Source: Eledone cirrhosa (taxonomy: Eukaryota). From it: a stretch of 64,000 bases of DNA. The position numbers and the translations under genes are program-made. The DNA lies in NCBI GenBank assembly GCA_964016885.1, contig OZ024744.1, forward strand, positions 106,578,001 through 106,642,000. Direction: 5' to 3'. How positions within the stretch are numbered: position 1 is the stretch's first letter; each line of letters begins with the position of its first letter. Under the pieces are notes generated by a model. It ran no database searches, was not told where the DNA came from, and saw nothing but the letters and a program-made list of their open reading frames with translations. Positions 2,625 through 22,470 of this stretch are shown in pieces.

Positions 2625-4269
2625 TTATTTAATGAGTAATGAACATTGACAGATGTAAGCAAGAAAGGTCTATTCCTAAATTCCAGTCATATTGCAATGC
2701 AAGCGGGGAAAAGTTGCTGCTAACCAGTTCAATACCAAGTCTGCAGTAAATGAACAGTCAATAGTTCATCCTTTCTAATCTCACAGGTAATTTTCCCCCT
2801 CAAAACTATTGTTATTAGAACCAATAAGGTGTTTTTACCACTCGTCCTTTGCATGAAGTTAATTGGTTCTTTGATATACCTGTTCATTGTCAGGAGTCAA
2901 TGTGACTTATCTTGGATGACCTCAGTTTAGTGGTTGAGCTACTCGAAAGGGACTGTCCATGTTGAGATGGACTAGCTTCAATCTATCAATGGAAACCATG
3001 TCTTCCAATCAAGAGTTGAAATGATGTCTCCTGGATGAATCACTTCATATGGTTCATCATACAGTGACTAAAAGGGTTTATGCTGTGCATCATGACAAAG
3101 GAACACAGACTTTGCTTTTTGAAAATCATGTGGAATAGAGAACTTTGGTGTACAGTGTGTTGACATTGGGGCTGGACACTTAAATGGGCAGCCAGCAGTT
3201 CCCTGTTGAAAGCACAACATTTCTGTTCTGTTGAAGAAAGATTGAGGTTGTCACTGACCATTGATGTATTGTTCCAAAACACCACCAACAGCTGTATCAG
3301 AGGCATCCACTGTGTGTACAGTTTATTCTGACATACGAGGATGGGAAACTATGGTTACTTTAGCAAGAGCTTCTTTTGTGGATTCAAAGGCTGAGGTCAT
3401 TGCACTGCTCCACTCCACAAGTTTTTAAAAACTTTTTTCTGATAGTGCTTTCTACAGCAGTCTCATCAATCTTGCCACAGAGAGAATGAAACAATGATAA
3501 CAATTTACCATACCTACAAATTGGTGTAGAGCCTCGCTTGTGGTGGAGTGAGGAAAGGATAAGTTAGCTTTCCCCTTTTCCCCTTCCAGTACCTATGATT
3601 TGATGTCTGAGAAAGTCAGTTTCTTTAACATCAAAGACAAACTTGGCAGGGTTAACTACCAAACCATATTGTTCAAGCCTATCAAAAAGAACCAACAGGT
3701 ACTTCTTGTGGTATTCTCCACACTTTGACTTGCAATAAGGATGTCATCCTGGTATACAAAATCAAAGTTTAGACCTTTAGTGAATTGGTCACAGGGTTAT
3801 TTACTTTGGTAAACACCACTGCAGGCCAACCACTAATTTAATTTGATACAGATATAATAAGGTTAACCAACTCACTCGTGAGTCAACTGTCTGAGAGCCG
3901 GTCGCCAAATAAACCAAGATGTCTCTTTTCTCCCTCCTTTATAATCCCTAGACCAGAAGTTCAAGGAATCTTCTAGAATTCAACGGGAAGTAACTCCAAT
4001 TAGTTTTTTCTCCCCGGGCAAGGTGGCGCTAGTCGCTACAAGGCTCCCCTCCAGACGCTAGTTGATAATAACCGTAAGGTCATTGTAGCGAGGAGCCGTA
4101 GAATAAGGAGCAAGCAAAACAAAAGGTACATAAATTACAATGGTTTGTAACAGAAGCAAAGTATGACAATAAACATGCAGAAAAATGTAACTGGAACAAT
4201 ACAATTCAAAACAGTACAAGGGAGCAAGGAAAATAGTGCTCAAAATAAATTCAAAATTTTTCAAAGTCA

Positions 4270-4603
4270 AATAGTCTGGTCTTTGATATCCTGTAGTTGT
4301 TGTTGCAGTTTCTGTATATCCCTGGATAAATCTCTAGAGCCATTGTTCATGACACCAATTGGTTGCGGAATTGGTGGGGGGTTGCCACCACAACAAACAA
4401 TGAAAGGAACAGTTTTCTCGATCTGTGTTCTACACTGGACACATTTCTTCATTAAGGCGGCACAGCCATCACAAGCACACATGTGACCATAGGGTTTGAA
4501 AAGGATGGAAGCCTTTTTGTCAGAGCAAACCACACATTCTTCAATCTTTGTACGAGACTGTACTGGTTCTTGAACACAAAGAACAGGTTGCAATGTGGAC
4601 ACA
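4270..4603 (-). pseudogene. MIB1: captured mind bomb E3 ligase (MIB1-like) C-terminal RING fragment
   Basis: [11 protein letters not shown] / [48 protein letters not shown]...[16 protein letters not shown] closely matches the MIB1 RING1-RING2-coiled coil; has a frameshifting deletion and a Cys>Tyr change at a Zn ligand. Confidence 0.9.
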
Positions 4604-4687
4604 TCGAATTAAATTAGTGGTTGTATCGAATTAAATTAGTGGTTGGCCTGCAGTGGTGTTTACCAAAGTAAATAACCCTGTGACATA

Positions 4688-4705
4688 ATCACGTCGGGGT
4701 CACCA
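4688..4705 (-). other. primer-binding site complementary to tRNA-Trp 3' end
   Basis: TGGTGACCCCGACGTGAT on the minus strand, 1 nt after the LTR end; matches the metazoan tRNA-Trp(CCA) 3' 18 nt from memory. Confidence 0.85.
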
Positions 4706-6252
4706 CTTTAGTGAATTGGTCACAAGGTGGCGCTAGTCGCTACAGACCCATGCTCACAGTCTCCATCAAGTTGAAAGGACTGTGCTGTGTTTATTAACCT
4801 GAAAGGTGTACATAAAAATTCATATAGTCCCAAGGGAGTGATAACAGCAGTCTTGGGAATATCGTCATCTTGTACAGGTATTTGTTGATAACCTTGGATG
4901 AGGTTGATTTTTGAGAAAATTGAGCAACCAGCTAACTGATCTGAGAAATCTTGTAAATGTGGAATGGTATACTGCTTGTGTTGATATGGCGATAATCCCT
5001 GCAAGGTCGCCAACCTCCATTGTGTTTTTGGTACCATACTTAGAGGTGAGGTGACGACCAGGAACTGTTTGATTGATAAATGATGCCGAAAGCTTCCATT
5101 TTGTCAATCTCAGCCTTCACACTGACAAATTTGTCCAATGGTAGATGATGCATGCAGCTGTGTACTGGAGGGATGGTGGGTAGAATGTGATGTTTTACTC
5201 TGTGGAGAGTTGTGGGTTGAGAGAATGCCAGGAAGAGAGAATGCAGTATCCATACACCTTGATTGTAGAACCTTTGGTGGCTGCCAAAGTTTGACCATGC
5301 TCTCACCAATGCTGGGATGATGTTCACTTTTGCTCATGTGTCACTTAGGATGTTTTATCTAGAGGTTCGATGGTGGATATACAGGAGCAATTGATTATGT
5401 TTGCTGGGCACCAGGGTTTTTAACAGTGGCTGGCCCTGGAGTTTCCTGGTATCAATAATGAGGAACTCTTGAAGTTGTTTATATCTGGTAGCTCTTATCT
5501 TACTCCGAACTTCTTGTGATAGAACACAAATCATCCCATGTGACCTCACCATGGCTTGTGGCTGACCTCATGGCATTGATTATAACACCTGTAAACAAAA
5601 ACATGTTTGTCTGATGCTAACTCCCATAAGTCCTTCATCTCAGTTTGAGTTACTAGAGCATACACCCAGTGAAGCCTTCAGCCCACACTGGAAAGTGGTC
5701 GTGTAGTTGTCATGACAAAAAGCACCCAGTCCACACTGTAAAGTGGTCATGTAAGTGTCACGACAAAAAAGCACCCAGTACTCACTGTTAACGTGCTTGG
5801 CATTAGGAAGGGTATCCACCTGTAGAAACCAAGCCAAAAATGGTTCTGTACAAACAAGATTTGGTCACCTGACCTGACATTGCTCATAACAGGATAACTC
5901 ATTTTGCAGCGTGGATAAATGGATGTGAAACAGAGATCATCACCATTTAACGTCTATTTTTTTCACTCTTGCATGGGTTAGATGGGTTGTCCATATTATG
6001 AGACATGTTTGGCCAGCCCATTGCCATCTTCAGGATGACCTCCATTACCAACACAAACAGTATAGTTGAGATTATACAGCCCATTGCTATGTCAACCTTG
6101 AAATTGATCCAGACTATTATGTACTCTTTGGTGGAGAATCACATTCTTTTGATGAGTGTTTGTTGAAAAGAATAATGCCCTGATCGAGTTGTTAACAACG
6201 TTTATTTTATAACAACAATATTCACTTTGAACATCGAGTAATAATATTTATG

Positions 6253-16394: not shown

Positions 16395-17435
16395 TCATCA
16401 TCATCATCATCATCAACGTTTAACGTCCGTGTTCCACGCTTGCATGGGTTTGGACGGGGGTAGTCCCACTTGAGGCAAGAGTGATTGTCTTGCTCGCATA
16501 GGACTGTCTGGCAGGTTTTCTACAGTTGGATGCCCTTCCTAACACCAACCACATTTACAGTGTGGGTCTGGGAGGTTTTTACCGTGTTGCCTACACGGCC
16601 ACATTACAGCGTGGACTGTGTGTTTTTTTGTCGTGACACCTACACGATCTCATTTGTTTCGGCCTGGATGGCGCGGCACCAACATAACTTTACATAGAAC
16701 GGGGTGGTGTGGATGGGGTGGGGGTGGCGGCGGGAGGGGTGTATTTTGTTAGAGATGCCTACTGGCAAGGCGGGTCTTCTCTGTTACTGAGTACCGCCAA
16801 AGGTCACGGTCCAGTGACATTGTCTTGGAGAGGTGTAAGTGTGTGAGGTCGGAGTTTATCAGCTCATCCCATGTTTTTCTAGGTCTGCCTATTCCGTGGC
16901 TACCGTCTATCTTTATTGCCCTGCACTTTGTAATACAGCTATCGACTTTCATGCGCATCACGTGTCCATACCAACGCAGCCTTCTCTCGAGTAAACAACA
17001 TCTGATCCCTCTTATCTCTAATTTTTTCCTTAGTTCGTTTATGCTTTGCCGTTCACGTATATTACTGTTACACATCCAGCGGAGCATGCAAGCTTCGTTC
17101 CTCTCTAGTCTGCGTATATCCTCTGCACACAATGCCCAGGTCTCACTACCATGCAACATTGCTGTTCGTATGCAGGCATCGTACAACCTGCCTTTCATTT
17201 TTAGGGAGAACCCTTTAGCAGCTAATAGTGGTATAAGCTCTCTGAACTTTTTCCAACCAGTTCTGACTCTAGCTACAGTACTTTCAGAGCACCCTCCCCC
17301 ACTGCTGATTTTATCGCCCAGGTAACGGAAGCTGTCCACTATTTCTATAAAACCCTCTGCGCAATTGAAAGAGCTAGTATTTTGTGGGCACTTGCTGCTA
17401 CTTATTGCACCAGAACACCGGCCACATGTAAAGTC
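16395..17435 (-). mobile_element. RTE-clade LINE 3' fragment (RT C-terminus + 3'UTR + (GAT)n)
   Basis: [60 protein letters not shown]. Confidence 0.93.
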
Positions 17436-21744: not shown

Positions 21745-22470
21745 TGAGCTTGCATGCTCCGCTGGATGTGTAATAGCAATATACGTGAACGGCAAAGCAT
21801 AAACGAACTAAGGGAAAAATTAGAAATAAGAGGGATCAGATGTTGTTTACTCGAGAGAAGGCTACGTTGGTATGGTCATGTGATGCGCATGAAAGACGAT
21901 AGCTGTATAACAAAGTGCAGGGCAATAAAGATAGACGGTAGCCACGGAGTAGGCAGACCCATAAAAACCTGGGACGACTTGATAAATTCAGACCTCATAC
22001 ACTTACACCTCTCCAAGACAATGTCACTGGACCAAGAGCTTTGGCGCTACACAGTAATAGAGAAGACCCGCCTTACCTAAGTACAAAGTGAAACCTACTA
22101 CAGTCAGTAGGCACCTCTAACAAAATACACCCCTGTCCCACTACCCCCACCTCATCCACACCACCCCTTTCAATGTAAAGTTATGTTGGTACCACAACAT
22201 CCAGGCCGAAACAAATGAGGTTGTGTAGGTGTCACGACCAAAAAACACACAGTCCACGCTGTAATGTGGCCGTGTAGGTAACACGGTAAAAACCTCCCAG
22301 TTCTACACTGTAAATGTGGTTGGTGTTAGGAAGGGCATCCAGCCGTAGAAAACCCGCTAGACAGTCCTATGCGAGCAAGACAACCACTCTTGCCTCAAGT
22401 GGGAAAACTCCTGTCCAAACCCATGCAAGCGTGGAATATGGACGTTAAACGATGATGATGATGATGATGA
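21745..22470 (+). mobile_element. RTE-clade LINE 3' fragment
   Basis: ORF 21754-22080 nearly identical to the 16395 copy; same 3'UTR and (GAT)n tail. Confidence 0.93.

What the first reader, a model, noticed from the sequence alone, without database searches (positions are those of the whole stretch)
3776..4744. LTR mini-element that captured a mind bomb (MIB1) mRNA fragment
Seen: TSD-LTR-PBS(Trp)-[MIB1 RING region, ~330 bp, uninterrupted]-Gypsy-like 3' segment-PPT-LTR-TSD. The intact GACC TSD shows the whole chimera was integrated as one unit. Established: LTR-mediated retroposition by template switching onto co-packaged mRNA is documented in plants, insects and some chordates. Inference: this is a cargo-carrying non-autonomous element that may have amplified Notch-pathway E3 ligase fragments and could be a source of antisense or small RNAs against MIB1.
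Basis: partly seen in the sequence, partly recalled or inferred. Interest (0 to 1): 0.78.

Follow-up and report, generated by a model that had tools for sequence, protein, structure and literature searches.

The report
Dead-end retrotransposon copy carrying spliced MIB1
A jumping-gene copy in an octopus-type genome holds a 329-base intron-free piece of the host mind bomb gene; it is a single broken copy, likely made in one faulty round of reverse transcription whose leftover tRNA tail recurs in sister copies.

Summary
On the minus strand (4744-3776) a Gypsy copy with a 4-bp TSD holds 329 nt of MIB1 joined across three GT-AG introns of the parent gene, so it comes from spliced mRNA. It is single-copy, frameshifted, and its 5' LTR is a 38-nt remnant of 265 nt without the TATA-like box. 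Long family copies match tRNA-Trp over 11 nt; this copy matches over 19. The extra bases likely come from the tRNA primer, which dates the 5' junction to reverse transcription. All 14 family elements found with such a tail are rearranged right behind it: fold-backs, inversions, and one more traced host capture. Best reading: a minus-strand switch onto MIB1 mRNA, closed by a failed plus-strand transfer rather than a switch back. Known process (LTR-mediated retroposition; tRNA-tailed deletions in HIV), new variant. Nothing supports amplification, and small RNAs were not testable.

The parts
3772..3775 (.). Target-site duplication GACC, left copy
   Evidence: identical at 4745-4748; 4-bp TSDs in 7 of 8 two-LTR relatives checked, 1 with a mismatch
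3776..4040 (-). Complete 3' LTR, 265 nt; TATA-like box at 3943-3938
   Evidence: 92-96% to family LTRs; pattern only
4041..4052 (-). Polypurine tract
   Evidence: sequence; same in relatives
4053..4275 (-). 3' untranslated end of the Gypsy family, downstream of the pol stop codon
   Evidence: 95% to copy L050
4273..4275 (-). ACT microhomology shared by the element and the first bases of the next MIB1 exon
4276..4604 (-). Spliced MIB1 cDNA, 329 nt, sense to the element: exon pieces 4604-4546, 4545-4467, 4466-4380, 4379-4276; 29-nt deletion between 4572 and 4571; 3 substitutions; residues about 871-990 of MIB1
   Evidence: parent at G000:C4:84.2915-84.2937 Mb
4603..4645 (.). Tandem duplication, two 21-nt copies 22 nt apart, of inverted U5 sequence
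   Evidence: D7
4622..4684 (+). Inverted copy of the element's own U5 (matches 3850-3788), 1 mismatch in 63
   Evidence: (I1)
4687..4705 (-). PBS plus tRNA-derived tail: 19 nt complementary to the tRNA-Trp 3' end, against 11 nt in long family copies
4707..4744 (-). 5' LTR remnant, 38 nt (LTR positions 1-22 and 250-265; 227 nt deleted at a 2-nt microhomology)
4745..4748 (.). Target-site duplication GACC, right copy
4749..5300 (-). Older, broken Gypsy-type reverse-transcriptase sequence that the element interrupts (continues left of 3772)
   Evidence: translation; weak RVT_1 match E 0.0011, below the curated cut-off

Best explanation
This is a single, broken Gypsy LTR retrocopy of spliced MIB1 mRNA, likely made in one faulty round of reverse transcription and likely inert since. 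Shown: structure, loss of introns, single copy, tRNA tail, inverted U5, TSD. Inferred order: (1) minus-strand DNA copied the element's 3' end, then switched at a 3-nt match (ACT) onto a co-packaged MIB1 mRNA and copied about 360 nt, slipping 29 nt; it never returned to element RNA, so it had no PBS to receive the plus strand. (2) Plus-strand strong-stop DNA, which copies the tRNA primer beyond the family's 11-nt PBS, folded back on its own U5, extended 63 nt, slipped once (22-nt duplication) and annealed to the MIB1 cDNA end at a 2-nt match (4 of 5 bases). (3) One arm of the resulting hairpin, most of the 5' LTR, was deleted, during fill-in or after insertion (timing unknown). (4) Integrase inserted the product through the two intact outer ends.
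For: Three GT-AG introns (540, 474, 766 nt) missing at exact boundaries. MIB1 sense to the element, as a minus-strand switch predicts. Long copies with an unchanged PBS match tRNA-Trp over 11 nt (5 copies; 3 more differ by a point change); the window copy over 19. Of 23 genome matches to U5 + tRNA tail, 15 belong to this LTR family (14 elements; two matches are ends of one); none continues into the normal sequence behind the PBS; 10 of 14 hold an inverted piece; tails run 15-50 nt, and the longer ones carry A or G opposite tRNA position 58 (L093, L094, L099, L103, L109, L111), where the m1A modification is expected (established knowledge). Pure fold-back products with 4-bp TSDs exist (L093 GATA, L111 AGTC). 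In the window the inverted arm is in register with a hairpin pairing the tail end with U5. The same delayed second-strand transfer with tRNA inserts of 7-54 nt at deletion junctions is described for HIV-1 (PMC12657518, passages read).
Against: Junction matches are short (2-3 nt) and weak alone. The fold-back hairpin is not a stable fold by itself (z -1.2, and the predicted structure is a different one). One near-full-length copy (L066) keeps a 7-nt tail remnant and then normal sequence, and L063 is ambiguous, so a tail does not always mean gross rearrangement. The 14 elements were selected by the tail pattern. The 227-nt and 29-nt deletions cannot be dated to reverse transcription. Read support is thin: two contigs cross the left TSD and one exon junction with no differences but by only 28 and 30 letters, under the tool's 31-letter rule, and may come from the assembled sample.
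Confidence: 0.72

Rival explanations
1. Two rounds: an earlier tailed fold-back copy was transcribed, and a classical double minus-strand switch (element, MIB1 mRNA, back onto RNA of that copy) made the chimera.
For: Fold-back copies with intact 5' LTRs exist (L093, L139); another LTR family has fixed a tRNA read-through and spread (L080-L086); double switching is the published model (PMC5131818, sections 5, 6, 10 read).
Against: No copy shares this junction; needs three RNAs in one particle; inverted arm differs from the element's own 3' LTR by only 1 of 63 nt.
Confidence: 0.11
2. Patch after insertion: an element already in place broke, and end-joining repair used MIB1 cDNA and nearby LTR sequence as templates.
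For: Deletions at microhomologies, a short duplication and an inverted templated piece are typical end-joining scars (established knowledge); unequal LTRs are not the normal product of reverse transcription; the TSD cannot exclude it.
Against: The 8 extra tRNA-matching bases are not in the family's PBS, so repair of an ordinary copy could not supply them; breakpoints sit at the tail in all 14 tailed elements.
Confidence: 0.12
3. One reading: a mobile non-autonomous mini-element that spreads MIB1 fragments and yields silencing RNAs against MIB1.
For: PBS, PPT, one complete LTR and both integrase ends are present; secondary retroposition of such chimeras is reported in flies (PMC5131818, section 5).
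Against: Single copy; 5' LTR lacks 227 nt including the TATA-like box and the R region needed for the first transfer (inference); no host exon evident in the window to supply read-through (ORF inspection only).
Confidence: 0.03
4. Assembly artefact joining cDNA-like and repeat sequence.
For: Repeat-rich region; no listed contig spans the element.
Against: TSD splits an older RT sequence cleanly; three private substitutions and a deletion against the parent; contigs cross the left end and an exon junction without differences (weak).
Confidence: 0.02

Closest known systems
LTR-mediated retroposition in animals (Tan et al. 2016, PMC5131818; abstract and sections 5, 6, 10 read)
   Same: Partial, intron-free, sense-strand mRNA piece replacing the internal ORFs of an LTR element; no poly(A); microsimilarity at junctions; both LTR ends present.
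   Different: Their model needs a second switch back to element RNA; here the 5' side is closed by tRNA-tailed, folded-back plus-strand DNA. The promoter LTR is mostly deleted, so co-transcription and secondary spread are unlikely. Species surveyed there were insects and vertebrates; this host is an octopod by protein similarity.
Aberrant (delayed) second-strand transfer in HIV-1 proviruses (PMC12657518; passages read)
   Same: tRNA primer sequence beyond the PBS marks the deletion junction; inserts 7-54 nt there, tails 15-50 nt here; read-through of position 58.
   Different: Here germ-line fixed Gypsy copies with a PBS of only 11 nt, frequent inversions and fold-backs, and host sequence captured at or near the junction; the passages read report deletions only.
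TRIM (terminal-repeat retrotransposon in miniature; definition from PMC10886601, passages read)
   Same: Under 1 kb, non-coding, PBS, PPT, 4-bp TSD, Gypsy-type ends.
   Different: Not a family: one copy, unequal LTRs, unique junctions.
Maize Bs1 (as summarised in PMC5131818 section 10)
   Same: LTR element carrying spliced host gene pieces.
   Different: Bs1 has 1-5 copies sharing switch points; this has one.
Asymmetric-LTR HIV-1 proviruses (PMC9278108; passages read)
   Same: One LTR partly deleted, proposed to arise in reverse transcription.
   Different: Mostly 3' LTR deletions; their two 5' LTR deletions are under 100 nt.

Membership tests
LTR-mediated retrocopy | Insert lacks the parent's introns | tested here: met
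   3 GT-AG introns removed exactly
LTR-mediated retrocopy | Insert replaces internal element sequence, flanked by discontinuous LTR-element parts | tested here: met
   relatives about 4.75 kb with gag-like, RT, RNase H, integrase zinc-finger pieces; window keeps only the PBS and last 235 internal nt
LTR-mediated retrocopy | Microsimilarity at switch points | tested here: inconclusive
   3 nt at the 3' junction, 2 nt (4 of 5) at the 5' junction: present but short
LTR-mediated retrocopy | No poly(A) tail or LINE-type TSD around the insert; outer LTR ends with TSD | tested here: met
LTR-mediated retrocopy (double-switch model) | Second switch back onto element RNA | tested here: not met
   5' of MIB1 lies inverted U5 and a tRNA tail, not normal internal sequence
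LTR-mediated retrocopy | Co-transcribed from the flanking LTR | not testable with these tools
   no RNA holder listed
TRIM / non-autonomous LTR family | Under 1 kb, non-coding, PBS and PPT | tested here: met
   969 nt
TRIM / non-autonomous LTR family | Two complete LTRs | tested here: not met
   38 nt against 265 nt
TRIM / non-autonomous LTR family | Multiple dispersed copies sharing the internal structure | tested here: not met
Gypsy (Ty3/Gypsy) parent family | RT-RNase H-integrase order, tRNA PBS, short TSD | tested here: met
   Pfam RVT_1, RT_RNaseH, Integrase_H2C2 in that order in one broken copy, 4 of 6 pieces matched; no phylogeny was run
Aberrant second-strand-transfer product | Primer-tRNA sequence beyond the genomic PBS at the junction | tested here: met
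   19 nt against 11 nt
Functional MIB1 retrogene | Intact reading frame with start and complete RING | tested here: not met
   frameshift, a Cys-to-Tyr change in the RING motif, no start codon ahead of the RING

The most novel reading that the evidence does not exclude
[quoted passage not shown] It closes single-switch captures of host RNA and primes on host transcripts directly, so failed plus-strand transfer is a second, recurrent route to LTR gene capture and to miniature elements, and the genome keeps fossil cDNAs of modified tRNA-Trp as its signature.
Probability: 0.45. Interest if true: 0.58.

Novelty: new variant of a known kind. Interest (0 to 1): 0.4.

Why it matters
The MIB1 copy itself is almost certainly without function. 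Its value is forensic: it keeps the intermediates of reverse transcription in order, and so gives a test (tRNA match longer than the family PBS) for telling capture during reverse transcription from later repair. The family offers at least 14 such products, which suggests that LTR gene capture need not wait for a second switch back to element RNA. It also extends LTR retroposition to a cephalopod; my searches found no such report, within a library that lacks most subscription journals.

Tried and rejected
Amplification of the MIB1 cargo: not found. The apparent cargo in L045 is an inverted piece of the element itself. Sequence behind the tail in L103 matches only an old repeat family at 78-86% and no second LTR end lies within 9.4 kb; the same lack of a second end holds for L112, whose sequence was not searched: neither is counted as capture. 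One search was mis-aimed (mostly LTR) and uninformative. Folding did not support a stable fold-back hairpin. The Fisher test is circular and is not used. The bacterial promoter scan does not apply. Solved-structure hits were IAP-type RINGs only. No RNA holder listed, so expression is untested. Contig depth on the flank is about half that on the parent exon; not a copy-number measure, noted only. Earlier scan findings: none. Two Ty1 papers on strong-stop transfer were not held; I saw only their titles. Literature searches for tRNA-tailed genomic LTR-retrotransposon copies or fold-back capture returned nothing relevant; Pulsinelli and Temin's work on PBS-end deletions in retroviral vectors is recalled, not read.

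Full report
Anatomy. The element reads on the minus strand from 4744 to 3776 (969 nt) between two GACC copies. In order: a 38-nt 5' LTR remnant (first 22 and last 16 nt of the 265-nt LTR); a PBS; 63 nt of the element's own U5 inverted (1 mismatch against its 3' LTR) with a 22-nt-period tandem duplication; 329 nt of MIB1; 235 nt of family 3' sequence with the purine tract; a full 3' LTR. It interrupts an older broken RT-like sequence (weak Pfam match). The rest of the window is 53% tandem repeat, with LINE-like pieces and no evident host exon.

The cargo is spliced MIB1. The translated piece has a RING domain; nearly all named hits among the 120 listed of 363 are MIB1 or RING proteins with MIB1 domain content, the closest from octopods and cuttlefish at 93-96%. 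A genome search found 5 matches, all 5 candidates scored: the window and four pieces at G000:C4:84.29 Mb. These are consecutive exons separated by GT-AG introns of 540, 474 and 766 nt, joined exactly in the window. A full-length MIB1 maps further exons up- and downstream at the same locus. The copy covers residues about 871-990, has a 29-nt deletion and 3 substitutions in 329 nt, one a Cys-to-Tyr change in the RING motif. It ends at an exon end; the next exon begins ACT, the same three bases at which family sequence resumes.

It did not spread. No other place holds the MIB1 piece or the 5' junction (40 of 382 candidates scored, only the window matches end to end). The deleted part of the 5' LTR includes the TATA-like box (pattern only).

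The parent family. The LTR and 3' segment have many relatives (765 candidates, 40 scored). I extended 20 of the first 30 loci. Long copies reach about 4.75 kb; pieces of one broken copy match a gag-region DUF, RT, RNase H and the integrase zinc finger in Gypsy order. LTR pairs of 8 relatives differ at 5-19 of about 265 sites; the window copy differs at 3 of 329 from MIB1 and 1 of 63 in the inverted arm, so it looks young, without a calibrated date.

The tRNA tail. ARAGORN confirms tRNA-Trp(CCA) genes in 2 of 6 stretches scanned. Long copies match the tRNA 3' end over 11 nt and then diverge (14 genome matches to this form). The window copy matches over 19. A search for U5 plus the long match gave 23 places; 15 have this LTR at 90% or more, forming 14 elements; I set aside 8 from more distant families. 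None of the 14 continues into normal sequence: 10 hold inverted pieces, 2 are simple deletions, 2 run into unrelated sequence with no second end found. Several tails run 39-50 nt into the tRNA, with A or G opposite position 58 and, in L093, a mismatch opposite position 37; both are commonly methylated positions (own knowledge). L093 is LTR, 49 nt of tRNA, inverted LTR; L111 is LTR, 47 nt of tRNA, inverted LTR tip; both have 4-bp TSDs. L108 holds about 290 nt from a locus on C21 between two head-to-head LTRs, the tail resembling a SINE in the donor: a second traced host capture. L109 holds a satellite in the same position, donor not traced. Against the pattern: L066 keeps a short tail remnant in a near-full-length copy and L063 is ambiguous.

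Mechanism. Plus-strand strong-stop DNA copies the tRNA primer (established; HIV passages in PMC12657518). With an 11-nt PBS the rest of that copy cannot pair (inference). Here the minus strand had likely left element RNA for MIB1 mRNA and carried no PBS at all, so the plus strand folded back on U5, slipped, and caught the MIB1 cDNA end. The 5' LTR deletion removes one arm of the resulting inverted repeat; whether this happened before or after insertion is unknown. The tail, not the TSD, is what ties the 5' junction to reverse transcription. Confidence 0.72; a two-round origin (0.11) and a later repair patch (0.12) remain open.

Reads. Four runs from one study hold parts of the stretch, none on record as RNA. 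On 3300-4500, one contig crosses the left TSD and one crosses the exon junction at 4380 without differences, by 28 and 30 letters, under the tool's 31-letter rule. This is weak support against an artefact. The 5' junctions were not checked in reads.

Literature. Tan et al. 2016 (abstract, sections 5, 6, 10) establishes LTR-mediated retroposition in insects and vertebrates by a double switch. PMC12657518 (passages) describes tRNA inserts at HIV-1 deletion junctions. PMC9278108, PMC10886601, PMC6894440 (passages) gave asymmetric LTRs, the TRIM definition and the reverse-transcription scheme; PMC5371799 gave only reference titles. Supplements were not read and may list retrocopies with tRNA tails. 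Searches for cephalopod cases or tRNA-tailed genomic copies found none.

Verdict. A genuine LTR-made retrocopy of MIB1, single and broken; known process, new variant in how the 5' side was closed, shared with sister copies. Interest 0.4.

Noticed in passing
L080-L086 (e.g. G000:C28:42698780, C1:2169296): Another LTR family carries about 34 nt of tRNA-Trp read-through, mostly with A opposite position 58, followed in 6 of 7 loci viewed by a second PBS-like sequence; the pattern has 253 genome matches, true tRNA genes included. Looks like the same error fixed and amplified.
   Followed up: partly
L108 / L118 (G000:C4:370.9125-370.9132 Mb): LTR, tRNA tail, about 290 nt copied from G000:C21:2.054 Mb (SINE piece, simple repeat, unique end), then a complete inverted LTR, inserted in an AAT microsatellite.
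   Followed up: yes
L093, L111, L139: Fold-back products: LTR, 30-49 nt of tRNA-Trp, inverted LTR or LTR tip; 4-bp TSDs seen in L093 and L111.
   Followed up: yes
L109 (G000:C11:23.419 Mb): LTR, 50 nt of tRNA, about 370 nt of a 41-nt satellite, partial inverted LTR; donor not traced.
   Followed up: partly
L121 (G000:C6:44.166-44.169 Mb): Composite product with three LTRs, two tRNA tails and an inverted internal segment.
   Followed up: partly
L013, L014, L023, L054, L059, L061, L067: Copies whose partial 5' LTR (10-229 nt) is fused to internal sequence, most with matching 4-bp TSDs; resembles premature second-strand transfer.
   Followed up: partly
L089, L090, L091: Partial tRNA-Trp copies that ARAGORN does not call; two abut LTR-end-like sequence and may be further tailed products.
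   Followed up: no
window 16752-17435, 21748-22077, 48729-49010, 49473-49922; N gap 34792-34991: LINE-like RT fragments by eye from translations; window is 53% tandem repeat.
   Followed up: no
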